Origin: Chromera velia
Taxonomy: Eukaryota
DNA: 45,594 bases
Assembly: GCA_018398765.1 (NCBI GenBank)
Contig: JAHBMJ010000515.1
Location: 1 to 45,594 of the forward strand
Direction: 5' to 3'
Positions 21,616 through 41,700 of this stretch are shown here, one piece after another (position 1 is the first letter of the stretch; each line of letters opens with the position of its first letter). Made by a program: the position numbers and the translations under genes. The notes beneath the pieces were generated by a model. That model saw nothing but the letters and a program-made list of their open reading frames with translations. It searched no databases and was not told the DNA's origin.

Positions 21616-24600
21616 ACGAAAGAAAGAAAGAAAGAAAGAAAGAAGGAAGGAAGGAAGGAAGGAAAGAAAGAAAGAAAGAAAGGAAAGAAGGAAGAAAGAA
21701 GTGTGAGTGTGAGTGTGTGTGTGTGAGTGTGTGTATGTGTGTGCATAGCGCACCTTTTTCCCACTCTCTTTCCGACAAAAGGAAACAAAAATGCTCCCAA
21801 GCAAGCGAAAGAATGAATTCAAGAAACGCACCAGGGTATCCACTTCGTTGACGTCTCCCACCAGAGTTTCTGAATTCTTGAAGGCTGCCTGGATCTCCGC
21901 ACCATCCATCAGCCCGTCCTGCAATCAGAGCAGGAGGTTGAATGAATGCATGAAAGAAAAACATACCAAAACCATTCATGCAGCCGGTCGGAGCTCTACA
22001 CGACCAACCCGCCCGGAACCGAGACACATGTAACATAAAGCTCCAATGGATACAGTCAGCATAATTCCAGGGGAGGCACAGGAAGAGCAAGGCATTTCGA
22101 CTGGCAGGTCTGCATTGGGAATGAAGAAAAAGTGCAAGTTAAAAGAATTCAAACCCCTGCAATTCCCCAGATGGTTCGGAAAGCGGCTCTGTAAGCGGAG
22201 ACCACCTAGGACGTGAGCTTGGAATGAGAAGACTTCATCCAATCCGCCCTACAAATAAATCTCTGTCTGTGTAAATAAAGAAATGTTCTCTCTCGGACCT
22301 GCAATTCGCACTGAGAGACGTGAAGAGATCGACGCGAAGGCCTCCAGGATGATGGGCAGAGGTTTCACCACCTGCATGCATGCATACATGCATGCAATCC
22401 ATTCATTCATTCATTCATTCAAAAGAGAGAACTAACGCGGATGCACACATACAGACATAGACGTGCAGAAACTAAATGGATGCGTTGTTTTCTTTTTTGG
22501 CTTTTGGCAGACTGAAAGAAAGAGGGAGAAAGAAAAGAAGAAGCAAGAAAAAGACGAGAAGAAAGTGAGCGAGAGAGAGTTGAAGAAAGGAACACATACA
22601 AACACAGGCACACGCGAAGAAGAGAGAAGGAGAGGGCAAGAAGGTGATACATATTGACACTATCCCTCGACCGCTGTCTGTCATTTGTGAGAGTACCCCG
22701 TCTGCATGTCTCTGCCAAGTGAAGGCGACAAGGTGCCACTGATGGAGAGGACCTAAATGTGAGGGAAAGATAGATAGATTCCCGATCTGTCTGCACCTGA
22801 GTCGAAACATGCAACCACCCCGACAGTCCCTCCCTGTCAATTGAAGGGCCGACCGACCGCACAGGCCACATCGACGCCATCCAGTCCCGCAATCTCAGGT
22901 GCCACTTCGCAGATCAGAGTCGCGACCTCTTGGAGCAACTCGGCAGCGAAAATTGCCCGCAGATCATCCGCCTCCCTCGGGGAGAGAGAGAGAGAGAGTC
23001 AATAGACCGTGAGCGAGACAGAGAGGGTCAGGAAGAGGAGGAAAGGAGGCTGGAAAAGAAAGAAAGACAGACAGACAGATGAACTCAAGGACGGAACACG
23101 AAGGCCTTTGGCCGTTTAAAGGAAATCATTGAGGAGATGCATGCATCATCAATCACCGGCACGGGGGTACTCTGTCAGAACGAAAACGACGCACAACGGT
23201 TGACATGGGGTTAAAAGCGCGCGCACACACACACACACTCAGAGAGAGAGGGGGAGAGAGAGAGAGAGAGAGAGAGAGATTGACACAGAAAGACAGCAAT
23301 GAATTCTGCCGATGTAAGACGAAAGGAAGAGAAAGAAAGAAGTGCTTGCAAGGTCTGACCCATGCAAGTACCGACCTCGCCGTGTCACATCTGAGAGTGA
23401 GGAGTTCGTTGAGCGTCTCGATGTCCGACTCGTTCACACGTTGCCTTGCAGGTATGTACGCAGACCTTGCAACAGATCGATCGGTTTTTGTTCCTCCTTC
23501 TTCTTTCCGCCTGATTGCATTCAACGGATTCTGCCTGATTTTGAAATCACAAGAATAATTTGTGTTCATGCTGGTGCTCATCTGTCCACAACACGCCGTA
23601 CAATTACAGAGGGAAAGGGACCAACGATGGAACCAGCCAGAGAGACAGTGAGACAACCAGACGACAACTAGGAATGCTCAGAGACTGGAAGGCGTCTAAA
23701 GGTTTCGTTCGAACTATGGCACTCATGCGGATGAACCTGCTAGATACGCCGCACTTTCAGGAATAGCTAAAGGTTGTGTGAAGATCGGAATGGCAGAAAG
23801 AAAACACTCGCAAACAGGGAGGGCATCCCTCTCTTTTTCTTCCTCTTGCTCTGTACGTTGGTCTTTCCATGCACTCGTGTGTGCCTGTGTACACGTGCAA
23901 GTGTGTTTATGTGTCCGCTTTTCTCTCTGAACTTGCGCGCATGTAGGTCTACCCATCTATCGTTTTGTTTGTCTACTTCTATGCCTTTCTATCTCCCAAA
24001 AAGAGTAGGAGAAGAAAACAAGGAGTCTGTCCATCTATCCGTCCCTGTCTCTGTTCGTGTCTCTCTCGCTGCTTGTTGATTTGTTTCTTCTTCTGCTTAT
24101 TTCTGCTTGTGCCCCTCTCTGGCTGTCTTCTGATTTCAAAAATATTCCAGAGGGAGAAGTAAAATGCATACAAACACATGCAGTAACAACGCACACACAA
24201 ACTTGGGGGGAGAAGCCGATCGTATCCGCTTCCTGCCTCCAGGCCGGCAAGGCTGTATACCAAATCCTGTGCGCATCTGCTGAGACGAGCCACAGAGATT
24301 TTCAAGCGAATCCGGTCGAAAAGCTGTCCCGCTCCTCCTGTGGCGTTTTGGATTTTCTGGAGGAGACTGGTCTCTGGCCCTTCCGTGTTTTCATCTTCCT
24401 CGATTTCTTCGTTTGTGAAGTTGCCCAAGGCAGCTGTGCCGGGAGGAAACTCAACCCCGACGTCTTGTTGAGGGAACGTGAGGTCTGCTGTCGGCAGATT
24501 TCTGACTCGAAAAGTCTGATTGGATCCAAAGGGACCTTCAAAGATGATGTCAATATCGGTGGGGGGCCCGACCAGAGTCGGGTCCGAAAAGTTTAACGTA

Positions 24601-25644
24601 GTGTTAAAGTCGAAAGGAGAGTCCCCGCTACAGGAGGCGTTGCCGAAATTGGAGGAAATGAATCGGTCCAGACCCGTCAGATTACCTCCCGTGGGGATGA
24701 ACGAGGAGGGCCTGCAATCAATTCAATTCAGTCACTCCCTCATTCACCCACTTACCCACTCGCTCTTCTACTCGGCTACCCACTGTCTCATTCTTTCATT
24801 TACTCAATGATTCACTCGCGCTCATCATGAATCACGAACTCAGCCCTACACATCCATGTTCAATTTCTTCTTCATCAGACGGAGTGCCTGAGAGCCCAGG
24901 AGCACAATTAGGGTGGCAGATTGGAAGGAAGTACTCGGCGTGCCCGGATGGAAGGAAGGACAGCCACAATGAAGGGGGCCTCTTTTCTTCGCTTGCCGAC
25001 GCTCGTCTCCGCCGCTTCTCTTCTCTTCTCTTCTCTTCTCTTCTCTTTTTTTTTTGTTTTGTTGTTGTACGCAAACAAGAGACGAAAGGAAACAAAGAGA
25101 CTAGCAGCTTGGAAGGCCACATGTATAACTCAATGACGAACTGACCCTGACAGCGCCTCTTCGACTGAAGTCGGAATCCCATTTCCTTTCAATCCCACGG
25201 ACTCCCCACAAATGTTCTCAGGAGAAACCTCGCCCCCCAGCCCTGGGAAGATCTTATCAAACAGGTTCTCTGTGCCGTCAAGCGTGTCTGCGAGAAAGTC
25301 TGACGTGATGTGGTAGAGGCTGTCCACCTGGTCCACAGTCGGGTAGGCCGGTGGGAAACTCCGACTGTTGCTCTGTTGCAAACGTCTCAGACGCTCTGTT
25401 GCAACATCGGCTCCATCCGTCTGGGATCTTTCACAGCCGTACCGAGCTAGATAATGACAGGCGCCCTCCACAATCTTGGCCAGCGGGCCCATGTCGTTGA
25501 TTCGTTTCGCGTAACCTTCAAAGTCGGCAGCAGTGGACGGGAAAGAACCACCCTGCCCGACTGCACGGGCCTGTTCCTGGAAGCAAGAGTGGAGAACATC
25601 CGGGGAAAGTCCGACTGCCACACCAAAGAGGAGGGGGCAGAATC
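19880..25644 (-). CDS. Multi-exon host gene A, unknown protein, probably a secreted glycoprotein (first exon not located)
   Basis: Exons bounded by AG/GT, approximately: 25146-25644, 24850-24940, 24203-24711, 23737-23767, 23375-23441, 22858-22976, 22690-22752, 22300-22371, 22060-22248, 21832-21918, 21343-21375, 20815-21091, 20644-20687, 19880-20387. Several junctions are phase-consistent (CDTAR|EADDL; ELIK|QLSWKFTLCPMSAST|YGDPKF); those around 22.1-22.7 kb were not resolved. Many N-x-S/T sequons; introns are filled with microsatellites. Confidence 0.65.
20450..20558. repeat. (TTCA)n intronic microsatellite
   Basis: Directly visible. Confidence 0.9.
21535..21743. repeat. (GAAA)n plus (GT)n intronic microsatellite
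   Basis: Directly visible. Confidence 0.95.
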
Positions 25645-26412
25645 CTGTGTGCATGTCAGCAGACAGGCAGCGAGGGAAGGAAAAAAGAAGGAACGCAGGC
25701 CGGTACACTGTTGTTTGCAACACTTCTTTTAACTTACACTCTTCAAAACCGTCTGCGAAGTGCAAGCTGTATTGATGCGGTCATAATTCTGCTGAGGCTG
25801 TACAAAAAGACCACAATCATATCAAAAAGACCACAGGCAAATCGTTTGTTCACACATTTGAACAAAGGCCTGGTGAAGTGTATGGTTGATTCACTGTTGC
25901 ACCTATATGGTGTTGCACAATGCATGTTGCAGTACGTGTTGCATAAACTGCGCTATGCTGCATGCATAGATTGCATGTACGTACAGATTTGCAAATCGAT
26001 CGATATACACATGTGTATACATGAGTCACATCTCTATATATGGTGCTGCACGTGTATATAGCTCTCCTCGATCTGGCTGTGGAGATTCTGCAGCCAATGG
26101 AACCTTTTGTTCCGAAAAGTTATGCACAATGTATAAAGGACAGCACTTGCTCTCTTGCAACGTCGCCATGCAGGATGCTTTGATGATCTTGGCTGTATAT
26201 ACGTTGCGCTCTGTTGCAGCAGCAACAAGGCATCGGCACTGATGTGTGATTCCGAAGGGTTCGCCCTCGAGACAGCCGCTGGAATTTCCTCATAGCCTTC
26301 CATGAAGCGCATGGATACTTTCATGCGTGGCGGCCGCGTCCTGTTGAAGGGTTCTCTCCATCTCTCTACAAGACGATCTCTTGCAAACAACAGATGTTGG
26401 GGAAAGGTTGAA
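23736..26412. repeat. Segmental duplication block X, copy 1
   Basis: Near-identical to 31189-33839 (offset 7453 at the left edge, 7427 at the right). Contains the 5' exons of gene A, the intergenic region and the first 37 codons of the nuclease-like ORF. Confidence 0.93.
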
Positions 26413-28764
26413 TCCTCCGCCCCGCACGCCCAGCACCTATATACATTGTCAAGGCTGAACGAGAGTTGTGGGCGAATATGGGGAGGTTCTTTCTATTGTC
26501 ACAGATCCTTGGTGGCGCAACTCGCAACTTTCTCTGCTGGAGGGGTGCAGCAATGTCTGACACACCCAAAGGCACCCCAGCCAGCTTCGCATCTGCGCCG
26601 AGAAAGACTTCACACTCAAGAAGCTTTCCATCTGGAGCGCAGAAGAACCGTGGACCCCACCAAATCACCCACAGATGCTGTAGTCAACGTTGAGAATGAA
26701 AAGAACCTTCCGAGGGTCTGTAAATTCACTTCGCACGAGTGTCACGAAGTAGAGCAATCGTCCATTGCTCTGCTTCGCGGGACGTTCCGCCCAACCGAAG
26801 ACTTTGTAGGCCTGGAGGAGCCCCCCATCCCCCTCCCCCATTTCGCCCACGCAGATATTGCAGTGCGCCCCAAAGGCTGCACAGAAGACCTCTGGCTTCC
26901 TGTGCAGGTCAAATCGACCAAATGCGAGAGTCGACCGACAAAAAACAGGTCCCCATCGTGGAAATTCCGAAGAGTCCGCGGGTACGACGGAATGGTAGTG
27001 GCCTTCGTCTCTCTGCAAAAAGATTGCGAGCTGGGCCCAAAGGTGTGGCTTTTCCCTGGACGTTATTTTGACAGCCTCGCAGGAGAAGGGTCGTTCCGGA
27101 TCACTCAGGGAGGAAAACATGACAATGTGGAGAGCAGGTTTCGATTTGAGAATCATTGTGTGCTGCATCATGACAGACATGTCGGGCAGGCGCTCTATGA
27201 AAAGTGGTGGGAAGCCCGAAAGGACCGTGGCTCCGTCTGTGACCCGTACCGTCTTCAAAGTTTCAGCAGCCTGCAGTCACAGTTGAGTCCTGCACATCTG
27301 AAGGAGTGGGAAATGCTACAGAGGTGTCTTAAGCTGTTTGACTCCGTCCCGGGGGGCGTAGAGGTTCGCGCCGCTCTCTACCCCTCCTTACCCCATGACA
27401 TTGAAATTCGCCTTGCCTCCTCCGATCAGAATGAGTGGCACAGAGTGCAGCTCAAGAGTTCTTGCTGGTTGCCAAGTCACCGTTTCGCTGCCGTCAACAT
27501 GAGTAGGAGGCTTGGTTCTCATACACTCCCGTATGCTGAAGGCGACTTTGATTTTTTGCTTGTGAGCTCCCCGCAGAATGGAAAGTCCTCAAAAGCTTTC
27601 CCTCCTGAATTCATCAACCCTCATCCACCTCTGGACCCTGATAGCACATCATTCTTCTTGATTCCCATGTCCGAGCTCGTCAAAGAAGGCGTGGTGTATT
27701 CAGAGAAGGAGAAGCAGAGGGGGGTGACAGGCCTCGGTCTTGACTTTTCGATCGATGATTCCACTTACACCTGCGTTCCGATCAGAGAGCCTCCCTGGAT
27801 TTCCCAGAAAGATGGGGATCTTGCCCCTTTCTCATCGCAAGGCATTGGAGAAAATGGTGCGACTGCGTCCGCATCAAATCGCAAGAGCACAACCGCATGC
27901 AGGCGCTCTGATCATTTTGACTTTCCGAACGTCCAGGGGGCATTGTACCCTGATTTTTTTTATAACAATGCACAGCAGCAACCCTACAAAGAGGCAGCCA
28001 CGAAGTATCGAGAAAGAACTTCTTTCAACGAGGCAGTGGATATTGACCATCTCCCCCTGCATGAATGGGGCAGAACCGACAGAGGGGCGCTTCTCCTCTT
28101 GCGACATAGCCTGGCCCCTGAGCCATCAAGTGGATTTGCCGGCCTCGAAGAGCCCCCGATTCCTCTATCTCCCTACACGACAGACCATGTAGCTGTGCGG
28201 CCAATCGGCTGTGCAGAGGATCTGTGGCTGCCTGTGCAACTGAGATCGACACGAACCCAGTTTGGAAAGCGTGTAACTGAAGAGGGAGGTGGGGTTCGGA
28301 ATCCCTCATGGATTTTCCGAGACCTTTCCCGTGACGGAACGTCTGCACTTTGCATTTTTGTGCAGGAGTTCCCGAGAGCCTGGCTTTTTCCAGGGGACTC
28401 TTTGCCCTACTCTCTGCAGAATTCAACGTCCAGGTCCTTTCGTATTACTGAAGGGGGAAAGTATGACAGAGAAGGGAGACGGTGCAGCTTCCAGCACGCT
28501 TTCCCAGAGGGTCGTCATGTTGGGGAAGCTCTACTTACGATCTGGCAAGAATGTAGGGACGGGAAGCGAGAGTGTGAATTGCTTCCTTTGAATAGACTCA
28601 GTGACAAGTTGAATCCCCTTCCCAAACACCGGGCCCAGCGTCTGGTAAAATGGAAAGTCAATGCGTGGGAAGCTTTGACGGCAGGCCAGCAAGTCCAGCG
28701 TATTTTGTCCTCAGGAGTGAGCCGAAGAATGACTACGCTCTCACATTACCTGAGACATTACTGA
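26302..28764 (+). CDS. Intronless 820-aa protein with three tandem PD-(D/E)XK-like domains (A-B-A') and a presequence-like N-terminus
   Basis: Long open frame. Domain A: ADIAVRP..DLWLPVQVKS (D185, Q202, K204). Domain B: E-helix, LPHDIEIR..HRVQLKSS..PYAEGDFDFLLV..FFLIP (D366, Q383, K385), resembling the I-Ssp6803I/PDDEXK_5 pattern. Domain A': DHVAVRP..DLWLPVQLRS. Confidence 0.85.
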   Translation: MKRMDTFMRGGRVLLKGSLHLSTRRSLANNRCWGKVESSAPHAQHLYTLSRLNESCGRIWGGSFYCHRSLVAQLATFSAGGVQQCLTHPKAPQPASHLRRERLHTQEAFHLERRRTVDPTKSPTDAVVNVENEKNLPRVCKFTSHECHEVEQSSIALLRGTFRPTEDFVGLEEPPIPLPHFAHADIAVRPKGCTEDLWLPVQVKSTKCESRPTKNRSPSWKFRRVRGYDGMVVAFVSLQKDCELGPKVWLFPGRYFDSLAGEGSFRITQGGKHDNVESRFRFENHCVLHHDRHVGQALYEKWWEARKDRGSVCDPYRLQSFSSLQSQLSPAHLKEWEMLQRCLKLFDSVPGGVEVRAALYPSLPHDIEIRLASSDQNEWHRVQLKSSCWLPSHRFAAVNMSRRLGSHTLPYAEGDFDFLLVSSPQNGKSSKAFPPEFINPHPPLDPDSTSFFLIPMSELVKEGVVYSEKEKQRGVTGLGLDFSIDDSTYTCVPIREPPWISQKDGDLAPFSSQGIGENGATASASNRKSTTACRRSDHFDFPNVQGALYPDFFYNNAQQQPYKEAATKYRERTSFNEAVDIDHLPLHEWGRTDRGALLLLRHSLAPEPSSGFAGLEEPPIPLSPYTTDHVAVRPIGCAEDLWLPVQLRSTRTQFGKRVTEEGGGVRNPSWIFRDLSRDGTSALCIFVQEFPRAWLFPGDSLPYSLQNSTSRSFRITEGGKYDREGRRCSFQHAFPEGRHVGEALLTIWQECRDGKRECELLPLNRLSDKLNPLPKHRAQRLVKWKVNAWEALTAGQQVQRILSSGVSRRMTTLSHYLRHY

Positions 28765-29249
28765 TTTTTTGGTGATGCAAATATTCCTAATGTTTATTTG
28801 TCTAGCTATGTATTAAATAGAAATTTATATAAATCTATATACTAGTAGTCTCTATACTATATATAGTACTGGTCTACATATTATAATTTATATATCTGTG
28901 AATGATGAGTTTCAATGATCATTATATATATTTTTAGTGTTCTTCTATAAGTCTATCATAAATTTTAAAAAAGAATTCTAGATGGATTAAAAAAAAAAAA
29001 AGAAGATATTGTTATGTATCTAATTTGTTTTCTTTCTTTTGATTAATTGCCTGCAAAACCTTGCCTACCTGCAATACTTATGCAACACCAAAATAATATG
29101 TGTTTGAGGCAAACAAAAGAAAAAAAATATGTTTAAAAACTGAGTATAAGTATAAAACATCTGCTAACATCTGCATTTTTTCCCTATGTGATACGCCTAT
29201 AATATATATTTCTTTAAACAAACTATATTAAAATGAAAGTACATCTCAT

Positions 29250-30852
29250 TATACACTGTATGTCATGGAGCAGGTCTAGTACTGCGGGTTAAGCTAGCAG
29301 TTATTGTATACAATTGTACAGCAATATTACTTAACTGTCTGACTCAGCATCATACAGTAGAGGAAGATTCTGGTCTTTCATGCAAATACGAGCGAGCGTT
29401 GGTGTATGATATAGAACGGTGTTAAGTAAGTAACATCTAAATGTTGGGCCTGCTTCGGCGCGTCCCGGCGCCTAAGTCTGAGTGCCAGTGAAGCCTGGGA
29501 ATTAAAAAAATACGAATGGATTCATGAGGACTCTGGAAGGAGATTCAAGGGCTCTGCAGCAAGACGAGTTAATACGTACAACATGGCAATACTCTTCGAT
29601 ATAGAAGATGGCACGCGATTTCCACTTGGGTTTTGCCACGAAGCAGTCATCAGCATTTTCACCTTCTCCTTGCATGGAATTTCCTTCCAACTGAAGCGGC
29701 TGGCTGGAGGCTCCAGAGAACAAACCGCTCTATGGCGTGACTGTGTCTGTTTACGTATGACTGCAAGACCCCCCGTCTGTGGATGCTCATTGATGCATGC
29801 ACGGTGGCTGCATGTACGTCTGTCTGTCTGTTTCTTGAATTCGGTTCATCAGGGCACACATACCTCGAATACGCAGCGGGGCCCATTGATCTCAGTCAAG
29901 ACGGAGGAGATGTCGGGAAGTAGACCGGGGTCGACCAGGACCCTCGTAGTGACGTTGGCAGAACATTCGATGCAGAAGTCTGTGGGAGGGGGGATCTGGG
30001 CACGATCGAGGCTACAGAGTTCGATGACTTCAAGATCGGGATTCTGACCGATCCCGATAGCACAGCTGGCAGTTGTGAGGCTAGAAAGGTCCAATCTTGT
30101 CAAGTCTGTATCAACAATTTCGACCGTGACGGCCTCGGTCACACCAATCGAAGCCGGCCTGGTCACATTCTGCATTCACGTAGGCAAGCAGTCACGCGCA
30201 AGCAGAAAAGGGATGAACGTCAATTTGTGCACCTCCAAAAACGATATTCTCAGCGTGGCCGTGTAGATCTTGCAGCCTCGATCGAATCCTTGAGGATGCG
30301 TGCGTTATTTTGCCTGTATTCCTTCCGGGCTCCATCACAGCATTTGCGTGCAAGTTACTCATGCAAGCGAAAAAGAGCAGAAACCTGAGAGAGGGCAATC
30401 ATCGAGGGGAGCGGCAATTTCTTTTCCCCGGACAAACGTATTGAGTGCAGACACAGACGAAAAGGGAAGGAAGGAATTCTTCCTCAGACAAAGTGAAAGA
30501 CGCAAACCCACCGCCGGCAGTCTGAATCGCGTGTGAGCGATGGAGAGCTCCACCACCTTATCGATGCCAGAAAGGTCCAGTGAGTTCAACTGTGTTTGAG
30601 CGTTGTTGTTCGGGGGTGCCCCTATGACACTCGGCTCTCTGGGGTATTGCAGCGTTCCCGTCAGACGGACCCTATCCATGGATAGAATAGACGAGCTGCT
30701 GCCTGTGAGGCGGCCATAGATGGGAACATCCCTTGGGTCGAGAATCTGCATGCATGTGTTTTGTATGCGTCCATACACATGCATGAATGTACGTTGAAGA
30801 AGAATCTGTAGGTATGCGCTTATTTCATGTGGATACTTCATTAGAAGCTTCA
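29250..30852. repeat. Segmental duplication block Y, copy 1
   Basis: Homologous to ~37135-38731, and clearly more diverged than the block X copies. Confidence 0.9.
29502..30745 (-). pseudogene. Orphan duplicate of the 3' exons of gene C (reading frames still open)
   Basis: Exons ~30387-30745 (ILDPRDVPIYG...DDCPLS) and ~29853-30170 (NVTRPASIG...PRCVFE), plus a probable terminal exon at ~29500-29710. No in-phase upstream exon was found. Confidence 0.5.
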
Positions 30853-31166
30853 AGGTACCCGGGTGGTTGGCTGAATGGGTGCGGGAGGGAGATTGAGAAG
30901 ACACATGCATGCATGTAGAGACTCTTTCGATCATCTTCTACTGTTTCTCCTTCATCTACAGTGGTATCCAAACAGTTACCCCCCTCTCGCAAAGCTGAGG
31001 TCCAAAAGTTGAGCTAGTTCTTTATGCAGACAGAGAAAGAGAGAGAGAGCGAGACAGACAGAGAGACAGACTATATATTTCTTCTTCGCACTTCTTTTTC
31101 TTCATGTACATAACAGACAGACCGACAGGCAGACAGACTGACTTACAGATATGGGGATTTTGAATG

Positions 31167-33092
31167 TCAGGGGGTCTGTGCGTGAAGTCCTGCTAGATAC
31201 GCCGCACTTTCAGGAATAGCTAAAGGTTGTGCGAAGATCGGAATGGCAGAAAGAAAACACTTGCAAACAGGGAGGGCATCCCTCTCTTTTTCTTCCTCTT
31301 GCTCTGTACGTGGGTCTTTCCATGCACTCGTGTGTGCCTGTGTACACGTGCAAGTGTGTTTATGTGTCCGCTTTTCTCTCTGAACTTGCGCGCATGTAGG
31401 TCTACCCATCTATCGTTTTGTTTGTCTACTTCTATGCCTTTCTATCTCCCAAAAAGAGTAGGAGAAGAAAACAAGGAGTCTGTCCATCTATCCGTCCCTG
31501 TCTCTGTTCGTGTCTCTCTCGCTGCTTGTTGATTTGTTTCTTCTTCTGCTTATTTCTGCTTGTGCCCCTCTCTGGCTGTCTTCTGATTTCAAAAATATTC
31601 CAGAGGGAGAAGTGAAATACATACAAACACATGCAGTAACAACGCACACACACACCTGGGGGGAGAAGCCGATCGTATCCGCTTCCTGCCTCCAGGCCGG
31701 CAAGGCTGTATACCAAATCCTGTGCGCATCTGCTGAGACGAGCCACAGAGATGTTCAAGCGAATCCGGTCGAAAAGCTGTCCCGCTCCTCCTGTGGCGTT
31801 TTGGATTTTCTGGAGGAGACTGGTCTCTGGCCCTTCCGTGTTTTCATCTTCCTCGATTTCTTCGTTTGTGAAATTGCCCAAGGCAGCTGTGCCGGGAGGA
31901 AACTCAACCCCGACGTCTTGTTGAGGGAACGTGAGGTCTGCTGTCGGCAGATTTCTGACTCGAAAAGTCTGATTGGACCCAAAGGGACCTTCAAAGATGA
32001 TGTCAATATCGGTGGGGGGCCCGACCAGAGTCGGGTCCGAAAAGTTTAACGTAGTGTTAAAGTCGAAAGGAGAGTCCCCGCTACAGGAGGCGTTGCCGAA
32101 ATTGGAGGAAATGAATTGGTCCAGACCCGTCAGATTACCTCCCATGGGGATGAACGAGGAGGGCCTGCAATCAATTCAATTCAGTCACTCCGTCATTCAC
32201 CCACTTACTCACTCGCTCTTCTACTCGGCTACCCACTGTCTCATTCTTTCATTTACTCAATGATTCACTCGCGCTCATCATGAATCACGAACTCAGCCCT
32301 ACACATCCATGTTCAATTTCTTCTTCATCAGACGGAGCGCCTGAGAGCCCAGGAGCACAATTAGGGTGGCAGATTGGAAGGAAGTACTCGGCGTGCCCGG
32401 ATGGAAGGAAGGACAGCCACAATGAAGGGGGCCTCTTTTCTTCGCTTGCCGACGCTCGTCTCCGCCGCTTCTCTTCTCTTCTCTTCTCTTCTCTTTTTTT
32501 TTTGTTTTGTTGTTGTACGCAAACAAGAGACGAAAGGAAACAAAGAGACTAGCAGCTTGGAAGGCCACATGTATAACTCAATGACGAACTGACCCTGACA
32601 GCGTCCCTTCGACTGAAGGTGGAATCCCATTTCCTTTCAATCCCACGGACTCCCCATAAATGTTCTCAGGAGAAACCTCCCCCCCCAGCCCTGGGAAGAT
32701 CTTATCAAACAGGTTCTCTGTGTCGTCAAGCGTGTCTGCAAGAAAGCCCGACGTGATGTGGTAGAGGATGTCCACTTGGTCCACAGTCGGGTAGGCCGGT
32801 GGGTTACTCCGACTGTTGCTCTGTTGCAAACGTCTCAGACGCTCTGTTGCAACATCGGCTCCATCCGTCTGAGATATTTCAGAGCCATACCGAGCTAGAT
32901 AATGACAGGCGCCCTCCACAATCTTGGCCAGCGGGCCCATGTCGTTGATTCGTTTCGCGTAACCTTCAAAGTCGGCAGCAGTGGACGGGAAAGAACCACC
33001 CTGCCCGACTGCACGGGCCTGTTCCTGGAAGCAAGAGTGGAGAACATCCGGGGAAAGTCCGACTGCCACACCAAAGAGGAGGGGGCAGAATC
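31167..33092 (-). pseudogene. Truncated duplicate of the 5' exons of gene A
   Basis: ORFs 32578-33363 and 31432-32145 match gene A exons. Homology stops at a splice donor (GCAG|GT in copy 1, GCAG|GA here), and read-through ends AGLHAQTP* at 31167. Confidence 0.6.
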
Positions 33093-33406
33093 CTGTGTGC
33101 ATGTCAGCAGACAGGCAGCGAGGGAAGGAAAAAAGAAGGAACGCAGGCCGGTACACTGTTGTTTGCAACACTTTTTTGAACTTGCACTCTTCAAAACCGT
33201 CTACGAAGTGCAAGTTGTGCAAAAAGACCACAATCATATATTTGTCCGAAGATTTAAGGCGTCTGCAAGTGAGAAGGGCAAATCGTTTGTCCACACATTT
33301 GAACAAAGGCTTGGTGAAGTGTATGGTTGATTCAATGTTGCACCTATATATATAGTGTTGCACAATGTTGCACTACGTGTTGCATAAGATGCTATATGCT
33401 GGAGTC

Positions 33407-33437
<31 letters not shown>

Positions 33438-33839
33438 GTTTGTGATGCATACAATATGATGCATGCATTTGTGGTGCTGCACGTGTAGCCCTCCAGGATC
33501 GATCTGGCTGTGTAGATTCTGCAGCCAATGGAACCTTTTGTTCCGAAAAGTTATGCACAATGTGTAAAGGACAGCACTTGCTCTTTTGCAACGCCACCAT
33601 GCAGGGTGCGTTGATGATCTTAGGTGTACGTTGCTCTCTGTTGCAGCAGCAAAAAGGCAACGGCGCTGATGTGTGATTCCGAAGGTTTCGCCCTCGAGAG
33701 AGCCGCTGGTATTTTCTCATAGCCTTCCATGAAGTGCATGGATACTTTCATGCGTGGAGGCCGCGCCCTGTTGAAGGGTCCTCTCAATCTCTCTACAAAA
33801 CGATCTCTTGCAAACAACAGATGTTGGGGAAAGGTTGAA
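31189..33839. repeat. Segmental duplication block X, copy 2
   Basis: Near-identical to 23736-26412. Confidence 0.93.
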
Positions 33840-35045
33840 ACAGTCCTCAGCAAGGACCCAAGGCGGAACACCAGCCTGCATACACAATACAACGTTGAGC
33901 GAACTGCTTGCGAACTCCTTCGAGCCAGTTTCCGCCCAAGAAAAGAATTCGGGGGACTCGAGGAACCTGGTGAGCCTCTGCCCCCCTATGCAAAGGCAGA
34001 CATGGCTGTGCGGCCCTGGGGGTGTTCGGAAGATCTCTGGTTGGCTGTGCAGGTAAAGTCCGCAACCTGCCAGAGAGGAAAAGCCACCGCCATAGAACAC
34101 AAACGGTCACCCAGCTGGTTCTTCCGGCGAGTTCGTGGCTACAGCGGAATGTTGGTGGCTTGCGTGGGCCTGCAGAATGATCGTCAGCTGGCTTGCCACA
34201 CCCCCACTGTCTGGCTGTTCCCGGGACACGTCCTTGACTTAGTTGCAAAAGACGCGCTCCGTATAACTGTGGGAGGGAAGAAAGAGAAAGTCGGAACTCG
34301 CTGTAGCCTTGAAGCTGAAAGCACTCATGCAGGAGAGGTACTGGTTTCAGCTTGGCATGACGCGAAGCGGGGGAACGGTCCATTTTTATTGCAAAATCTG
34401 AAAACTTTGCAGACACAGCTCAGTCCATCCCATCTTGCCGAATGGACGATGCTCCAAAGATGCTTGAAACTCTTTGAAGACGTCCCAGGAGGTGTGGAGG
34501 TTCGTCATGCTCCGTGTGCCGCGCTTCCCTACGATATTGAGATTCGTCTGCCAGGGGGAGAAGTATCGTGGCAGAGGGTGCAGCTAAAAAGCTCTCGTTG
34601 GAATTTGGGGAGGCGACTTTCAAGAGTTCACATGTTCAAAAGGGTGAAAAAAAGTGTACGACCGTATAGCGAAGGTGACTTTGATTTTCTCCTGGTTAGT
34701 TCCCCACAGAACGGTTCCAGTCCGCTTTTCCAGTCGTCAGGCAATCGGATTGATGCCGCTCGTGTGGTATCTGACAACTTTGGTTTAGATTCCAGTTGGC
34801 GTTTCTTCTACTTGATTCCAGAATCCATTCTAATACGTGAAGGGGTGGTGACCTCTCGCAGAAATGGCGGTACAGGTATTATGAATTTGAGCCTAGATTT
34901 TGATTTGCCTCCTGTTGCAAAGCCGACGTCACGCGGACTCCGTCTGCTTGACTGGCGTCTTGATACCTTTGATGCCGGCCAGGCTTTCAAAAAAATAGAG
35001 CATATACTTCTACAGTTTAAAAATAGAACGCGGACAGATAATTAA
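33729..35045 (+). CDS. Intronless 438-aa paralog with two tandem PD-(D/E)XK-like domains (A-B)
   Basis: ADMAVRP..DLWLAVQVKS (D91, Q108, K110) and LPYDIEIR..QRVQLKSS..PYSEGDFDFLLVSSPQNG..FYLIP (D269, Q285, K287). Collinear with domains A-B of 26302-28764. Confidence 0.87.
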   Translation: MKCMDTFMRGGRALLKGPLNLSTKRSLANNRCWGKVETVLSKDPRRNTSLHTQYNVERTACELLRASFRPRKEFGGLEEPGEPLPPYAKADMAVRPWGCSEDLWLAVQVKSATCQRGKATAIEHKRSPSWFFRRVRGYSGMLVACVGLQNDRQLACHTPTVWLFPGHVLDLVAKDALRITVGGKKEKVGTRCSLEAESTHAGEVLVSAWHDAKRGNGPFLLQNLKTLQTQLSPSHLAEWTMLQRCLKLFEDVPGGVEVRHAPCAALPYDIEIRLPGGEVSWQRVQLKSSRWNLGRRLSRVHMFKRVKKSVRPYSEGDFDFLLVSSPQNGSSPLFQSSGNRIDAARVVSDNFGLDSSWRFFYLIPESILIREGVVTSRRNGGTGIMNLSLDFDLPPVAKPTSRGLRLLDWRLDTFDAGQAFKKIEHILLQFKNRTRTDN

Positions 35046-35578
35046 CTTGAAGGTGGATCATTGATACCCGCACTGATATGTTTTTATAAAAAAGGAAAAA
35101 GATCCGAGTTTTGTAGTATATACTTGTAACTTTATAACTTATACATCATAATTCAGTTCAATGTATCATAATTTAATGACTCGGATACTCGTAAGTGTTC
35201 ACCAATTATATAAGACATGGTTTCATTTTTTTTTTTTTTGCAAAAGAACTACAATATTGTTATAAGTCTTACTAATGGCTAAAGGTTTTAAAATAGAGTT
35301 CTTAGATTTTATGTTCTTCGAATCTTTTGGTGGCGTGAATATTTCAATTATATTTCTAATATATATATATTTATCAAATATAAAATAGATACAAATAGAT
35401 GCAAATAGACTTGTTTGATAATTAATTTAAATAAACAAACAATCTTCAAAAAAATATATATTTCAATATACTAGTACAATATGAATGAAAATATATCAAC
35501 CTTATTTTTTTTTTTTTGAACTGTCCGTAATACTTCCAAACAGTCTTACGCAATGCCAATACTTGTGTAATTAATACC

Positions 35579-36824
35579 CTAAGCGTGGGCTAAAAAAAAA
35601 AAAGTGAAATCTAAGCTATAAAAAGTCTAACTTTAACCCTTCCCCTTAAAAAATTATTATTTTAATTATATATAAGCCTACACTGTTTAGAGGGCAAATT
35701 CTGAATCTACGTTTTTATCCTGAGTTTTTGATAAGTTTTTACAAGCTTTTTGAACATGCATGAATCTAACTTTTACTCATACTAGCATTCACAGCGTTCA
35801 GATATTCATACCACTACACCGTTTTCTTCTTCAAGAACCTGGAGTACGGCATTGTTAACTTCGGTCCAACCCTACATAGGAAAGTTACGTCCATTTGCCA
35901 AACGTATGGTTGCGCTTCTTTCTCTTTTAAATGGGTCACTACTGCACTAGACATAATATTTTTAAAAGAAAACTCGTCTTTCTTCCCCTTCAGAAGACCA
36001 AAGACTGAACCCCTTTCCCTTTGCTCTTTCAGAATGCAATAAAAAACCTGTACCTTGAAAGCTTTATGTCATCAATCATGCAATCCAGAACTGCTATGCA
36101 CTGTCTATACCTATGCTAATTCAAAACACTCTCTTTCTCCCCCCCCTCTCCACTACTGGTTTTTTAACATGCAGCCATACCCAGCTTTTTTCGAAAATGA
36201 TTTTCCCCCCATTCCAATCTTGCCCTGCTGCCTAGCCTGCTGCCTGCTTTCCAGATTCTCTGAAGCCTGTACACATATCAAACGATGAAACTTTGCAGCA
36301 GTCTTTGCTTCAAGTTGATCCATCAATGGGTTGATCTTTTTGATGTTTTCTTTGATTCAACGTATCACTGTATTCAGTGGTGTATTTTTCTCCCCCCCAT
36401 CCTCTTTCTCAATTAGGGGAGGATTCTCCGCAGGAAAAAACTAGAGAAACAACTATAAGGAGATCTACAGAGAGAATTTGCTGTCATACAAGTTGAGTCA
36501 GTTTGATTTGTTTGGCAACTAGTTTGGCAAGCAGGCTTTCCTTCCCCTCCCCCAATGAATCTGTGCTCTGGGTTATCCTCATTCACTGTTTAAAGCCTTG
36601 TCAGTGGCTTGAGATCTGGTGTTGCTAGGTCTAGAATTCAACTTCAGTTATCATTATCATCAGCTAGCTCTAAAACTAGCTCTAAAAACACTTAAATTAA
36701 TAGTAATGTAGTCCTCTTCTAACTTTTTGTTCACTTGGCTAGAAAAAGTTTTGGAAAGAAAAAAAAAAAACTGAAAATGCGTTAAGAAAAAAAAAAAATT
36801 TTTTTTTTCTCATCCCACGCCTAG
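35579..36824. mobile_element. Non-autonomous hAT-type DNA transposon, 1246 bp
   Basis: Perfect 8-bp TSD TTAATACC at 35571-35578 and 36825-36832. Imperfect TIR: CTAAGCGTGGGCTAAAAAA versus CTAGGCGTGGGATGAGAAA (reverse complement of the right end). No intact ORF. Confidence 0.8.
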
Positions 36825-37134
36825 TTAATACCTAAATAATAGTTGTTTGATGCACAAACAAAAAATTTAAAACTCTTTTTTAACAAACTGATTATATGAG
36901 TCAGTGCGACATATATATATATTGTTTTTAAATATGATACACTTGGTGAATGAATTGAAGAAGTTAAAGCTGGTGAGTATACTACTTAGGCTCTGGCCAA
37001 CTGCGGGGCATAAGCCGCATAACATGTAAGTAACTACTGTTCTGTTCACACTTATTTACTCAAAGTAGGAAGGGCATTTGAAGGCGCTCGCAATATTTCA
37101 AAAAAAAAAATACTAAAATGAGAATGCAATCCGA

Positions 37135-38731
37135 TATGCACTGTGTGTTTTATAGTAGGGGTCAAGCTAGCTATTATTGTATATATAATTGTGAAGCAAT
37201 TTTAAATATCAGCATCATATTATTCATATAGCAGAGCAAGATTCCAAGTCTTTCATATAGAAACGATTGAGTGTTGGTGCATAACACAGACCGTTGTTAA
37301 ATTAGTAACATAAGAATCTTGGGCCTGTTTTGGCGTGTTCTGACCCCTAAGTCCAAGTACCAGTGAAGCCTGGGAATTAAGAAAATACGAATGGATTCAA
37401 GAGGACTCTGGAAGGAGATTCAAGGGCTCTGCAGTAAGACAAGTTAATACGTACAACATGGCATCACTCTTCGATGTAGAAGATGGCACGCGATTTCTAC
37501 TTAGATTTTGTCATGAAACAGTCATCAGCATTTTCATCTTCTCATTGGTATTTCCTTCCAATTGAAGAGGCTGGAGGCTTCAGAAAACAAAACGGTTACC
37601 GTTCTATGGCGTGACTGTGTCTGTGTATGTATGACTGCAAGGCCTGCCGGTATGGATGCTAATTGATGCAGCAAGCCACAGTGGCTGCATGTACGTCTGT
37701 CTGTCTGTTTCTTGAATTTGGCTAGCTAGGGCACACATGCCTCGAATATACAGCGGGGCCCATTGATCTCAATCAAGATGGAGGAGATGTTGGGAAGCAG
37801 GCCGGGGTCGACCAGGACCCTCGTGGTGAGATTGGCCGAACATTCGAGACAGAAGTCTGTGGGAGGGGGGATCTGTGCACTATCGAGGCTACAGAGTTCG
37901 ATGACTTCAAGATCGGGATTTTGACCAATCCCAATAGTACAGCTCACGGTTGTGAGGCTAGAAAGGTCCAATCTCATCAAGTCTGTATCAACAATTTTGA
38001 CCGTGATGGCCTCGGTCACACCAATCGAAGCCGTCCTAGTCGTATTCTGCATTCACTAAGGCAAGTAGTCACGCGCAGGTAAAAAAGGAATGATTGTACA
38101 TTTGTGCACCTCCAAAAACGATACTATCAGCGTGGCCATGTAGATCTCGCAGCCTTGATTGAATGCTTGAGCATACGTACGTCATTTTGCTTGTATTCTT
38201 TCCAAGCTCTATTGAAGCATTTGCATGCAAATTACTCATGCAAGCAAAAATAAGCAAAACCCTGAGAGAGGGCAATCATCGATGGGAGCGGCAATTTCTT
38301 TGCCTCGGACAAACGTATTGAGTGCAGACACGGATGAAAAGGGAAGAAAGGAATTCTTCCTCAGACAAAGTGAAAGACGCAAACCCACCGCCGCGGCAGT
38401 CTGAATCGCATGTGAGTGACCAAGAGCTCCACCACCTTATCGATGCCAGAAAGGTCTAGTGAGTTTAAAGATGTTTGAGCATTGTTATTCGGGGGTGCCC
38501 CTATGATACTCGGCTCTCTAGGGTACTGCAGGGTTCCCGTCAGACGGACCCTCTCCATGGATAGAATAGACAAACTGCTGCTGGTGAGGCAGCCATAAAT
38601 GGGAACATCCCTTGGGTTGAGAATCTACATGCATGTGTTTTGTATGCGTCCATACACATGCATAAATGTACGTTATAGAAAAATCTGTAGACATGCGCTT
38701 ATTACATGTGGATACTTCATTAGAAGCTTCA
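37135..38731. repeat. Segmental duplication block Y, copy 2 (CpG-depleted)
   Basis: Homologous to 29250-30852, with many CG-to-TG/CA differences and a 2-bp insertion near 38393. Confidence 0.9.
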
Positions 38732-41700
38732 TGGGTGAAACTGTATCTAAAGATGTTTTTTTTTATTAGTCTATTGATAAGACTCTATACCTATTTCTTA
38801 CTGACTTTTTAAAAATGTGTTTTTTACATATCGTGAATGACCCTAGGGGTACCAAATGACCCACTTGAGTTTTGATAGTGATTACATAGGCAAAGATGAC
38901 CCAATATAACCCTAAAATCATAGTAGTAAGTACACTAGCCCCCAAACTCTCAAACAGGAAAGCTTGATCCAATACCGTCCCCAAAAATGAAATTTTGCCA
39001 AACTCCAAAATTTTGTTCAATAATTTTGTTGCCTAGGGTAGTGAATTTATGTACTAGTCCATGCAGGCTCACGACATGATGCGGCAGACGCAAAAGAAAA
39101 GAGAAGAAGGCAAACAAAAACAGGGAGAGCCAAAAGAACCAAGATAGAAAAAATAAAGAAAAGAACGGGCGAACAAAGGAGGGAAGGAAAGAAAGAAAGA
39201 AAGAAAGGAAGGAAGGAAGGAAGGAAAGAAAGAAAACAAAAAGCACAAGGCCCCATCCAGCACTTCAACGACTTCTTGTTCTCTTTGACCCACCCCTTTG
39301 ATCAATCTGAGGACACTGCAGTACATCATCAGCTTAAATTCCTTCGTCCCAGTCAAGTTGGCAACAAAGTCACCCCCACATGTAGCGTTCTCGATGACGG
39401 TCTGATTCGGCAAGATGAAGTCACCTTCCCGGGCGATTGCGAAAAGGGGGTTTTTAGAGGGGCCAAAAAGACAAGTAAGAAAGCGGATAGACGAGGAGGA
39501 GGGTAGCTGAGGGTCAGCCGTGGATTGTTGTCTGCTTATGCTCACATTCCCGTCAAAGGAGCCTGCCGAGAAGTCAACAATCAAATTCTCGTCTGATGTG
39601 TCAATGCCTGACGATACCGGAGGGCTGAAAAAGCGGAACGCTAACTTTCCGTCTCCTACTGAGTCGAGGAAGGGAGCCACGATGATGCTCTCATCTTCGC
39701 CTCTTCCATCTTTAAAGAAGCCACTGAAAATGTTCATGTCAAACTGAATGGTTACCTCCTAGAGATGTGGGAAAAAGAAACGCTGAGGACTCGATAACTT
39801 CCCAACCACGTCGCCGAGGTCAATTCTCATCATGTTCATGCTGAAGACATATGCATCTATTAATATGTATGTATTTAGATGTATGTATGTATGTATGTAT
39901 GGAAGTGTGCATATCTGTATGAACGACGATTTTTATCGATAATATTTGAATCCATTGGCAAGCAGTTTGCAATTCGTTCCAGATGCCTTCAGATGGACGA
40001 CCTCATGTGTCAGGCCTGGAGCTACAAGGGACCGCTACGAAGGAGTTTGTATTGACTGCATATATATTCGGGCATGCGTCTTTTCTTTCGTGTCCTTCCT
40101 TCCTTCCCTTTTTTTTTTTGAATCAGACGAGGACGTGAATGAAAGGACATAATCAATCGGCGAGTTTTATTCATTGCAGACGAATACACATTTTTTTAAA
40201 AATTCAAGTTGCATATCTGGGTACATGAAAATTCTTTTGACGCCTGTCTGTCTTCAAAAAGTTTTCAAAATTCGAAAGTCGTGCTTCTTGTCGTCTTCAC
40301 GGCCCAACCAATGTCCAACCAGTAGAAGAAAAACAACAGGAAGGAAGAAAGAAAGAAAGGGAGGAAGGGAGGAAGGAAGGAAGGAAGGAAGGAAGGATGC
40401 ATGGAAGGAAGGAAAGAAAAAATAAAGAAAGAGAGAAAGAAAGAAAGAAAGAAATCAAGAAAAAATAAATCAGAGAAAAGCGGAAGTAGGGGAAGGAGAT
40501 GAGAAAAGAAAGCAAGGACAACTCAAAGCAGAACCAGAAGAGGAAGGAGACTGAAGAGGAAGGCACAGAAACGGCAGACCCCCCGACCGACCAAGCGACC
40601 AACCGACCAACCGACCGTTCAAGATTGGGAAAGTAGATATCCTGGCCGTCAAGGGGGAAGACGCCACCCACCTGAACCCCCTCGACAGGGAAAGGAAGGA
40701 AGAGACAAGACATAGATGTTATACACATACAAACATGCAAAAAGACAGAATGCCCCCGTTTCAGATGGACAGCCCAACCGACCGACACAGACACACACAG
40801 CAAGAATCAGACGTGCGGTGTTCTCGTAGAGATAGAGACAGAGTCAGACTCAGAGACAGAAAGAGATACAGAGAGAAAGAGCAAGAAGCATGAGGACATT
40901 CCTTTGGAACCAAAAAAAGTGGTAATCAAATTTCGAAAAATAGTAGGGGGATGCAGGAAGGAAGGGAGACTCTGAAAAATAGAAAAATACATTCGGAACG
41001 CGAGATTCATTATCTCAGCCTAGACATCCATCCTCCTCAATTCAAAAGATTTCATTTCAATCAGATCATCTTGCAATACGTTCCCATGCAGCCAGAGATA
41101 GCAGTGGATCAAGCTTCTGTTTATCCAATCAAAACAAGCACATGGCTGACTGACTGCAATTTCATCGAGTTCGCGGCACCCCACCAACTCCTCGAACTGG
41201 ATGAACGGCGCGATGCTCCTGGATCCATCACAGAGGCTCTCCGTCTCCCCCCGGGCCTTGCACACAGGACTGATGAAAATATTCGAGGACCTATCAAAAA
41301 GCCTTCGCCTTCCAGGGAAGTCACTTTGGTCCTCTCTCAATGAGCCTCCTCCTTCTGCTGCTGGAGAGAAGAAAGAGGCCAGCCCTCCTTGCTGCTTCCT
41401 GACAGACCTCTTCTTAAACTCTATGAATGGGTCCGTCCCTTTCTCGTCCAGATCTCCCCAGTACTTTTTTGGATTGAGGTCGAAGAGAGAGGAGTCAGAG
41501 AGCTTCAAGTTTTCCTCCACACTATCAACGGGTGCATCTGCATGGAGAAGCTGCAACATTGAAAAGAAATGGGGGCCGGATTAGAAAGATAAAAAAGAGA
41601 GACACAGAGACAGAGGATTTGTAGAAACATTAGGTAATCCAACTAAATCAATCAATAAAGAGTTAAATATATAGGATTTTATAGGAAAAATTCAAAAACT

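What the first reader, a model, noticed from the sequence alone, without database searches (positions are those of the whole stretch)
26302..35045. Family of intronless eukaryotic genes made of tandem homing-endonuclease-like PD-(D/E)XK domains
Seen: two intact, intronless paralogs (820 and 438 aa) in an otherwise intron-rich, TE-decayed region. Each has two different modules with an acidic helix, a D, then Q-x-K 16-17 residues later (ADIAVRP..VQVKS; LPHD/LPYD-IEIR..RVQLKSS..PY.EGDFDFLLV..FF/YLIP). The putative catalytic D, Q and K are kept in both paralogs although the linkers have diverged heavily, which points to selection. Established: the PD..QxK..Y...D...Y/FLIP pattern is that of the I-Ssp6803I/PDDEXK_5 group I intron homing endonucleases, normally small single-domain bacterial or phage proteins that oligomerise. 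Inference: these are single-chain pseudo-dimeric nucleases or nucleic-acid-binding proteins, either domesticated or still spreading. I recall similar two-domain hypothetical proteins in giant viruses and picoalgae but cannot verify that here. This is the best candidate for an undescribed system.
Basis: partly seen in the sequence, partly recalled or inferred. Interest (0 to 1): 0.88.

Follow-up and report, generated by a model that had tools for sequence, protein, structure and literature searches.

The report
Giant-virus-type twin nucleases aimed at mitochondria
Two uninterrupted genes of a coral-associated alga belong to a family of about 25 proteins built from paired restriction-enzyme-like modules, whose giant-virus relatives come and go at a fixed genome site, and the algal versions were likely re-addressed to the mitochondrion, where they would cut its DNA at chosen sites.

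Summary
Confirmed, with corrections. Both ORFs are real. Each carries an A+B pair of PD-(D/E)XK modules: I-Ssp6803I is the best solved match to B, and the catalytic D, Q and K are all but invariant over 58 units. The 820-aa protein also has a third, degenerate module nested inside B. The host is most likely Chromera velia (inferred from named relatives), with about 25 paralogues; Vitrella has three. The two genes are old paralogues (synonymous sites saturated, sisterhood rejected); only the promoter and first 38 codons were copied recently. Full-length two-module relatives are giant-virus proteins. One lineage sits right behind PCNA in 14 of 74 scorable loci, patchily, like a free-standing homing endonuclease. 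Viral members start with basic, AP2-like or zinc-finger-like segments; 12 of 13 chromerid leaders look like mitochondrial presequences (my own score, no trained predictor). Best reading: domesticated, probably mitochondrial, site-specific DNA endonucleases. Import, cleavage, substrate and expression are untested. Ten literature searches found no description. This scan noted the same family before on other DNA (a protist; giant-virus PCNA loci).

The parts
26302..28764 (+). Gene 1, 820 aa (P0001): leader - A - B(most) - linker - A'(degenerate) - end of B
26302..26415 (+). Codons 1-38: Arg-rich, acid-poor leader, predicted mitochondrial presequence (Met1, Met4 or Met8 start); 84% identical to the leader of gene 2
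26416..26733 (+). Gene 1 aa 39-144: spacer without counterpart in gene 2
26734..27276 (+). Gene 1 module A (aa 145-325), E151, D185, Q202, K204
27277..27801 (+). Gene 1 module B (aa 326-500), E335, D366, Q383, K385; lacks its last strand and helix here
28060..28602 (+). Gene 1 module A' (aa 587-767), catalytic Asp replaced by His629 and Lys by Arg648; likely inactive
28612..28737 (+). Displaced end of module B (aa 771-803) and an R-x-M-T-T motif (aa 808-812) at the offset where five other family units carry a similar motif
33729..35045 (+). Gene 2, 438 aa (P0002): leader - A - B
33729..33842 (+). Gene 2 codons 1-38, predicted mitochondrial presequence
33879..34412 (+). Gene 2 module A (aa 51-228), E57, D91, Q108, K110
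34413..35021 (+). Gene 2 module B (aa 229-431), E238, D269, Q285, K287; closest solved fold I-Ssp6803I
23736..26412 (.). 5' duplicated block, copy 1: exons of a divergently oriented unknown gene, the shared intergenic stretch and the leader codons; 93% to copy 2 overall, 95-99% over the first 2 kb
31189..33839 (.). 5' duplicated block, copy 2
29286..30855 (.). 3' duplicated block, copy 1: end of the next minus-strand gene; 86% to copy 2
37159..38734 (.). 3' duplicated block, copy 2

Best explanation
These genes encode single-chain pairs of restriction-fold (PD-(D/E)XK, QxK type) modules with both predicted active sites intact, related to come-and-go endonuclease genes of giant viruses, and in this alga they were likely domesticated and sent to the mitochondrion, where each paralogue would cut mitochondrial DNA at its own site. 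Steps: (1) shown: two homologous modules per unit, conserved catalytic residues, old paralogues under purifying selection, about 25 family members. (2) Shown for viral relatives: optional presence at one site behind PCNA; inferred: they spread by homing. (3) Inferred: the two modules take the place of the two DNA-contacting subunits of I-Ssp6803I and read a long asymmetric target, as monomeric LAGLIDADG enzymes do; the variable segments right after each QxK would set the specificity. (4) Predicted from composition: where viral members have a basic, AP2-like or zinc-finger-like front end, chromerid members have a mitochondrial presequence. (5) Speculative: the cuts feed the recombination and linear-fragment state of chromerid mitochondrial DNA, and double-unit (ABAB) proteins are split by the matrix processing peptidase.
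For: Fold: AlphaFold model pLDDT 86, pTM 0.79; module B to 2OST Z 13.9, rmsd 2.5, 141 aligned; module A to NhoI Z 8.2, 117 aligned. Catalytic columns over 58 units: A Asp 57 (one gap), Gln 58, Lys 58; B Asp 58, Gln 58, Lys 57 plus one Arg; helix Glu in all Chromera units that have the column (20 of 25 for A, 25 of 25 for B). Identity among 25 Chromera units falls to 0.20-0.21 and 0.18-0.30 right after the two QxK motifs, against 0.81 and 0.53 at the motifs. Full-length structural matches are giant-virus proteins (Aureococcus virus A0A076FH51 E 1.5e-14, TM 0.62 over 388 columns; Klosneuvirus; Hyperionvirus) and three unnamed Nucleocytoviricota clusters of 122, 85 and 56 members. PCNA loci: 14 occupied, 60 empty, 8 changes on the PCNA tree with 5 forced by strong branches. 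Leaders: 12 of 13 chromerid against 3 of 22 viral/environmental starts and 10% of 207 internal windows pass an Arg-rich, acid-poor test; the most hydrophobic 11-residue window averages 0.3-1.8 (0.9 and 0.6 in the window genes), weak for a signal peptide. [quoted passage not shown]
Against: No import, cleavage, substrate or expression data. The leader score is my own, made after seeing the sequences; kin share leaders; no set of ordinary Chromera starts was available as control. 15 of 25 Chromera models could not be scored (they begin at or inside module A, or are fused to another gene). One environmental protein with a presequence-like start (P0028) was left out of the comparison group; counting it gives 4 of 23. 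The window's own leaders lack the R-x-[FLYIM]-[SATC]-[STAG] motif found in 5 of 13 chromerid and 2 of 22 other leaders. A two-gene mitochondrial genome seems a small target for about 25 cutters. Vitrella units have Ser/Gly at the helix Glu columns. The tree is unrooted and leaves Chromera, Vitrella and the viral clade in one open fork, so virus-to-alga transfer is not shown. Several family members are truncated or fused to transposon sequence (P0022).
Confidence: 0.42

Rival explanations
1. Mitochondrial RNA factors that work like RAP/FASTK proteins: each paralogue binds or cuts one junction of the precursor transcripts that yield the many rRNA fragments.
For: Same predicted compartment. A large family with variable recognition segments suits many RNA targets. 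RAP domains also have a restriction-endonuclease-like fold, are expanded in chromerids (28 in Chromera) and are mostly predicted mitochondrial in apicomplexans (PMC8190603, passages).
Against: No Pfam RAP hit at E<=1 in the 2 window proteins or 26 relatives. RAP-bearing structures rank low (FASTKD4 Z 3.4) against Z 13.9 for a DNA endonuclease. The nearest relatives behave like DNA-homing genes. No relative from apicomplexans, dinoflagellates or Perkinsus, which share fragmented rRNA, was among the 34 hits (a single-sequence search).
Confidence: 0.2
2. Restriction-like defence enzymes taken from giant viruses and turned against invading viral or other foreign DNA in cytosol or nucleus; family diversity reflects an arms race.
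For: Viral relatives; birth-and-death pattern with truncated members; module A's best solved match is the restriction enzyme NhoI (Z 8.2).
Against: Presequence-like leaders in 12 of 13 scorable chromerid proteins; Z 8.2 is close to the level the tool calls common; no methylase or other partner gene seen in the window.
Confidence: 0.13
3. Selfish genes still at work: nuclear homing endonucleases, or nuclear-encoded destroyers of one parent's mitochondrial DNA in a cytonuclear conflict.
For: Viral relatives are optional at a fixed site. In the window, near-identical flanks enclose two very different nuclease cores, which is also what a cassette swap leaves; in the virus pair L009/L010 the gene is the most divergent real ORF (81% against 91-100%).
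Against: Synonymous sites between the two copies are saturated; the closest Chromera pair in the tree still has end branches of 0.11-0.12; no terminal repeats or target duplications; conversion of flanks around a selected core explains the same profile.
Confidence: 0.12
4. Structure-specific mitochondrial junction resolvases: the fused pair acts like an Hjc dimer on branched DNA made by recombination-dependent replication.
For: Hjc enzymes match module B at Z 6.3-7.6; a two-site single chain suits paired cuts; chromerid mtDNA recombines heavily.
Against: One resolvase would do, whereas about 25 paralogues vary most in the predicted sequence-reading segments; I-Ssp6803I matches far better (Z 13.9).
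Confidence: 0.08
5. Plastid-targeted or catalytically idle DNA-binding proteins.
For: Leaders are also Ser-rich; module A' of gene 1 has lost catalytic residues.
Against: Chromerid plastid import is scored on a bipartite sequence with an ER signal peptide (PMC6723311, passages) and the leaders lack a strong hydrophobic core; near-invariant D, Q, K in both modules argue for catalysis.
Confidence: 0.05

Closest known systems
I-Ssp6803I (PDB 2OST; Pfam PF11645 PDDEXK_5), cyanobacterial group I intron homing endonuclease
   Same: Fold of module B (Z 13.9), D...QxK active site and Y..DFD motif aligned residue by residue.
   Different: I-Ssp6803I is one 150-aa domain that forms a tetramer on a 23-bp pseudo-palindrome (PMC3384342, passages). 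Here two diverged modules share one chain, some proteins hold two such pairs, the genes are free-standing and nuclear, scores stay below the Pfam cut-off, and leaders look mitochondrial.
Uncharacterised two-module proteins of Nucleocytoviricota (A0A076FH51, A0A1V0SIJ8, A0A3G5A8P9; loci L003-L018)
   Same: Whole A+B architecture and all catalytic residues.
   Different: They start with AP2-like (label from memory), zinc-finger-like or basic segments, one shared with phage HNH nucleases, and are optional next to core genes. I found no description of them in print.
Monomeric LAGLIDADG homing endonucleases (I-SceI type) and yeast HO
   Same: Logic: duplication and fusion of a multimeric homing nuclease into a pseudo-symmetric single chain; HO is a domesticated example (PMC3943268, PMC3384342, passages).
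   Different: Unrelated fold. The 2014 review names monomeric LAGLIDADG enzymes as the only compact homing nucleases reading fully asymmetric sites; HO acts in the nucleus.
RAP/FASTK proteins
   Same: Restriction-endonuclease-like fold, chromerid expansion, predicted mitochondrial targeting (PMC8190603, passages).
   Different: No RAP profile hit; two full QxK modules per unit rather than one terminal RAP domain; nearest relatives are viral genes.
Mitochondrial polyproteins cut internally by MPP (yeast Arg5,6)
   Same: An R-2/R-3-like motif at the junction between fused units (PMC8734313, passages).
   Different: Here the units are repeats of one nuclease, and cleavage is only predicted from a motif noticed after the fact.
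MepB (PDB 4LQE, PF08877)
   Same: Second-best match to module B (E 3.3e-5; Z 11.4).
   Different: Single bacterial domain; no two-module chain.

Membership tests
I-Ssp6803I / PDDEXK_5 intron homing endonucleases | PD-(D/E)XK fold closest to I-Ssp6803I | tested here: met
   (module B); module A is homologous to B
I-Ssp6803I / PDDEXK_5 intron homing endonucleases | Catalytic Glu, Asp, Gln, Lys | tested here: met
   2OST sequence positions 37, 50, 52 align; their catalytic role is recalled, the original paper was not held
I-Ssp6803I / PDDEXK_5 intron homing endonucleases | Reaches the PF11645 curated cut-off | tested here: not met
   0 of 2 window proteins hit; 10 of 26 relatives hit below cut-off, best 20.5 against 26.1 bits
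I-Ssp6803I / PDDEXK_5 intron homing endonucleases | Single small domain per chain | tested here: not met
   two or more modules per chain
I-Ssp6803I / PDDEXK_5 intron homing endonucleases | Tetramer on DNA | not tested
I-Ssp6803I / PDDEXK_5 intron homing endonucleases | Encoded in a group I intron | tested here: not met
   no Rfam match in 19000-45594; gene 1 lies between the apparent start of one neighbouring gene and the apparent end of the next
Free-standing homing endonucleases (viral relatives only) | Optional at a fixed site beside a conserved gene, patchy on the host-gene tree | tested here: met
   14 occupied, 60 empty PCNA loci; 8 changes, 5 forced
Free-standing homing endonucleases (viral relatives only) | Co-conversion of the flanking gene end | tested here: inconclusive
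   PCNA nt 721-765 z 3.4 (1 of 17 windows); last 45 nt 1 of 1000, last 30 nt 147 of 1000
Free-standing homing endonucleases (viral relatives only) | Cleaves the empty allele | not testable with these tools
   needs an assay
RAP/FASTK | RAP domain profile match | tested here: not met
   no RAP hit at E<=1 in 28 proteins
RAP/FASTK | Structural likeness to a RAP domain above unrelated rows | tested here: inconclusive
   FASTKD4 module Z 3.4, rank 49
RAP/FASTK | RNA binding or processing in an organelle | not testable with these tools
   needs CLIP or assay
DUF4365 (PF14280) | Profile match | tested here: not met
   1 of 26 relatives at E 0.09, 27 residues; one UniRef entry bears the name
Mitochondrial matrix proteins | Arg-rich, acid-poor cleavable presequence | tested here: inconclusive
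   composition fits in 12 of 13; no trained predictor, no Chromera control set
MPP-cleaved polyproteins | Internal R-2/R-3 site at the unit junction | tested here: inconclusive
   strict motif 3 of 10 linkers, loose 6 of 10, against 1 and 14 in 11,270 module residues; motif chosen after inspection
DNA transposons | Terminal inverted repeats or target-site duplication around the gene | tested here: not met
   only short or low-complexity repeats around either gene

The most novel reading that the evidence does not exclude
Chromerids captured a giant-virus homing endonuclease, gave it a mitochondrial address and multiplied it into a set of about 25 site-specific single-chain cutters, some delivered as MPP-split polyproteins, that actively chop and reshuffle the mitochondrial genome into its heterogeneous linear pieces. 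The same family would be a natural source of monomeric restriction-fold meganucleases that enter mitochondria.
Probability: 0.2. Interest if true: 0.9.

Novelty: new variant of a known kind. Interest (0 to 1): 0.68.

Why it matters
What produces the fragmented, heavily recombining mitochondrial DNA of chromerids and related alveolates is open, and this names candidate enzymes that can be tested in a tube. It would be a case of a selfish viral nuclease domesticated for an organelle. Separately, a natural single-chain, two-site PD-(D/E)XK endonuclease with long asymmetric targets would be the restriction-fold counterpart of monomeric LAGLIDADG meganucleases, a class I did not find described.

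Tried and rejected
Pfam gave nothing for either window protein; NCBIfam nothing for 23 members; PHROGs only the unnamed phrog_5018 in 15 of 23. Atlas feature searches stayed under 0.9. The single-sequence model of the 820-aa protein was unusable (pLDDT 32). Complex prediction of two copies was not available, so a dimer of A+B units is untested. No whole genome was held, so family size rests on protein databases and loci of other paralogues were not seen. RNA reads could not be consulted. Six paralogue gene ids per search gave no hit in 12 of 16 supplements of PMC4501334, the one of PMC6920818 or the 472 characters held for PMC10739334; unseen supplements and organelle proteomes in papers not held may bear on location and expression. 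Viral scans with P0036 and P0027 found nothing. The one prokaryote-genome hit (L099, a Cyanobium MAG contig) is 99.7% identical to L008, which carries an RNA polymerase N/RPB10 gene, so I read it as a mis-binned viral contig; that scan used one motif and does not exclude prokaryotic two-module forms. Rejected: that the two genes arose from the local duplication (AU p 0.0024); that fast divergence is recent positive selection (pS saturated); RAP or DUF4365 membership; transposon ends. Not excluded: that the two tandem units are divergent haplotypes assembled side by side. The first tree run timed out and was redone with a quicker model, whose support is less reliable with long branches.


Full report
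Observation. The window looks like intron- and transposon-rich eukaryotic DNA. Both ORFs are open and far longer than chance (longest of 200 shuffles 192 aa). Profiles for the two modules show gene 2 as leader-A-B and gene 1 as leader-A-B-linker-A'. A' has His and Arg at the catalytic Asp and Lys. Module B of gene 1 stops at profile position 148 of 186 and its missing end reappears after A' (E 5e-4 among four test pieces); P0018 has the same layout.

Host and family. Nine of nine hits of the first search were named Chromera velia. The exhaustive search gave 34 hits: 24 Chromera-type, one of them the window's own 820-aa protein from Met8; three named Vitrella brassicaformis; seven environmental (names). 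With gene 2, which has no exact record, that makes 25 Chromera proteins; five hold two A+B pairs and several are truncated. The species is inferred, not read from the record.

Fold. A model of gene 2 aa 47-434 from 23 sequences has pLDDT 86 and pTM 0.79. Module B matches I-Ssp6803I (Z 13.9, rmsd 2.5, 141 residues) and MepB (Z 11.4); module A matches NhoI (Z 8.2) (Foldseek agrees). The sequence profile finds 2OST and 4LQE among 177,635 PDB sequences. A and B are homologous over the catalytic core. Over 58 A+B units the Asp, Gln and Lys of both modules are all but invariant, and among Chromera units the segments just after each QxK are among the least conserved. That these segments read DNA in I-Ssp6803I is recalled. 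Partial or duplicate records (13 ids) were left out of the unit set.

History of the locus. The two genes sit in a tandem pair of roughly 7.5-kb units. Identity runs 95-99% over the first 2 kb, 76-91% over the intergenic stretch and leader, 53-61% over the nuclease modules, and 84-92% in the 3' block. Synonymous divergence is 0.01-0.07 in the 5' block and leader, 0.18 in the 3' block and 0.80 (saturated) in the modules, with pN 0.35. Gene 1 is sister to P0018 (100), gene 2 groups with P0004 and the second unit of P0012, and holding the two together is rejected (p 0.0024). So the cores are old paralogues under purifying selection whose shared front end was recently homogenised or copied. A cassette swap or side-by-side haplotypes would give a similar profile and are not excluded.

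Viral relatives. The only full-length structural matches in the viral library are giant-virus proteins, and the Atlas's top three structural clusters for an ABAB paralogue are unnamed Nucleocytoviricota proteins. Metagenome loci place relatives beside RNA polymerase N/RPB10, PIF1, Endonuclease VII and DUF5767 genes. In the near-identical pair L009/L010 the gene is 81% identical while other real ORFs are 91-100%. Four loci had it behind PCNA, so I fetched the best 80 of 585 PCNA loci: 13 hold the gene 73-155 nt after PCNA, one more is cut by the contig end, six are too short to score and 60 are empty. A collagen-like gene follows in 10 of 12 occupied loci examined and in 38 of 60 empty ones; presence needs 8 changes on the PCNA tree, 5 forced, though it is more clustered than shuffles (mean 13). 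The PCNA 3' end is more alike among ten occupied lineages in one of 17 windows (z 3.4), but not in the last 30 nt. This is the pattern of a free-standing homing endonuclease; cleavage is not shown. All 25 Chromera units form one branch (100); Chromera plus Vitrella as one clade is not rejected (p 0.63). The tree has no root, so the direction of transfer is inferred only.

Targeting. Chromerid leaders are Arg-rich and acid-poor: 12 of 13 pass, against 3 of 22 viral or environmental leaders and 10% of 207 internal windows (Mann-Whitney p 2e-5; not independent samples). Dropped before the count: 15 Chromera models with no usable leader, 10 environmental proteins with short leaders or partial starts, and P0028, an environmental relative whose leader also passes. 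Five of 13 carry an R-x-aromatic/aliphatic-small-small motif; the window's two do not. None has a strong hydrophobic core. After module B, 3 of 10 inter-unit linkers carry a strict and 6 of 10 a loose MPP-type motif, against 1 and 14 in 11,270 module residues; six units have it exactly 24 residues after the last W of B, including the end of gene 1. MPP cuts such internal sites in yeast Arg5,6 (PMC8734313, passages). The motif was noticed first and tested second, and shared ancestry could also preserve it; ABAB could instead be a single-chain mimic of the I-Ssp6803I tetramer.

Mechanism. I favour imported, site-specific DNA endonucleases (0.42), then RAP-like RNA factors (0.20), defence (0.13), selfish drive (0.12), junction resolvase (0.08), other (0.05). 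Fold, residue conservation, selection, family size and viral occupancy are shown; catalysis, import, substrate and role are inferred.

Literature. Ten searches listed no paper describing this family; the library lacks most subscription papers. Read as passages: PMC3384342 and PMC3943268 (homing endonucleases), PMC8190603 (RAP), PMC9550989 (myzozoan mtDNA), PMC8734313, PMC6723311, PMC4501334 and PMC12768974, which reports 15 PD-(D/E)XK genes in mirusvirus introns; whether those are two-module proteins I could not see. After my own tests I found two earlier notes of this scan on other genomes that reach the same readings; they are not independent evidence.

Verdict. A real, apparently undescribed variant: a single-chain tandem form of the I-Ssp6803I-type nuclease, mobile in giant viruses and expanded with probable mitochondrial targeting in chromerids. 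It works like a monomerised homing endonuclease but is not a member of the intron-encoded PDDEXK_5 family by the tests above. Interest 0.68.

Noticed in passing
window 23982-25771, 29849-33237, 37726-38052 (minus strand): Multi-exon unknown gene lying head-to-head with each nuclease gene, about 650 bp apart, with no Pfam hit in the four exon ORFs scanned. The middle copy looks chimeric: its 5' part matches the left gene (97-99%) and its 3' part the right gene (86%), as after unequal crossing-over.
   Followed up: partly
window 859-5442 (minus strand): Decayed copia-type retrotransposon (RVT_2, E 6e-9). The C-terminal half of family member P0022 resembles the 1357-2589 ORF by eye, suggesting the same element family interrupts a nuclease paralogue elsewhere.
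   Followed up: partly
window 10944-13007 (+) and 14720-18549 (-): Two broken non-LTR retrotransposons in opposite orientation (weak RVT_1 and endonuclease hits), 45-60% alike in translation.
   Followed up: no
window 6200-6659 and 9399-9858: 460-bp direct repeat, 97% identical, around a 2.7-kb interval; possibly LTRs of a non-autonomous element.
   Followed up: no
window 28765-29285 and 35046-37158: Sharp drop to 25% and 34% G+C right after both stop codons; the second holds a 25-nt inverted repeat pair (35579-35603, 36800-36824) that may bound a 1.2-kb insertion.
   Followed up: no
L099:1014-5497: Contig in a Cyanobium MAG is 99.7% identical to L008, which carries an RPB10-type gene; likely a mis-binned giant-virus contig.
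   Followed up: yes
L011:8004-8804: A GIY-YIG/NUMOD1 endonuclease gene lies 0.9 kb from the two-module nuclease gene in this giant-virus contig.
   Followed up: no
L019-L098, downstream of PCNA: A collagen-like gene with a Tyr-rich Cys-Cys start follows PCNA, with or without the nuclease, in most of these viruses.
   Followed up: partly
protein P0028: Environmental A+B protein with a presequence-like leader outside both chromerid branches: a further eukaryote lineage may have the family.
   Followed up: no
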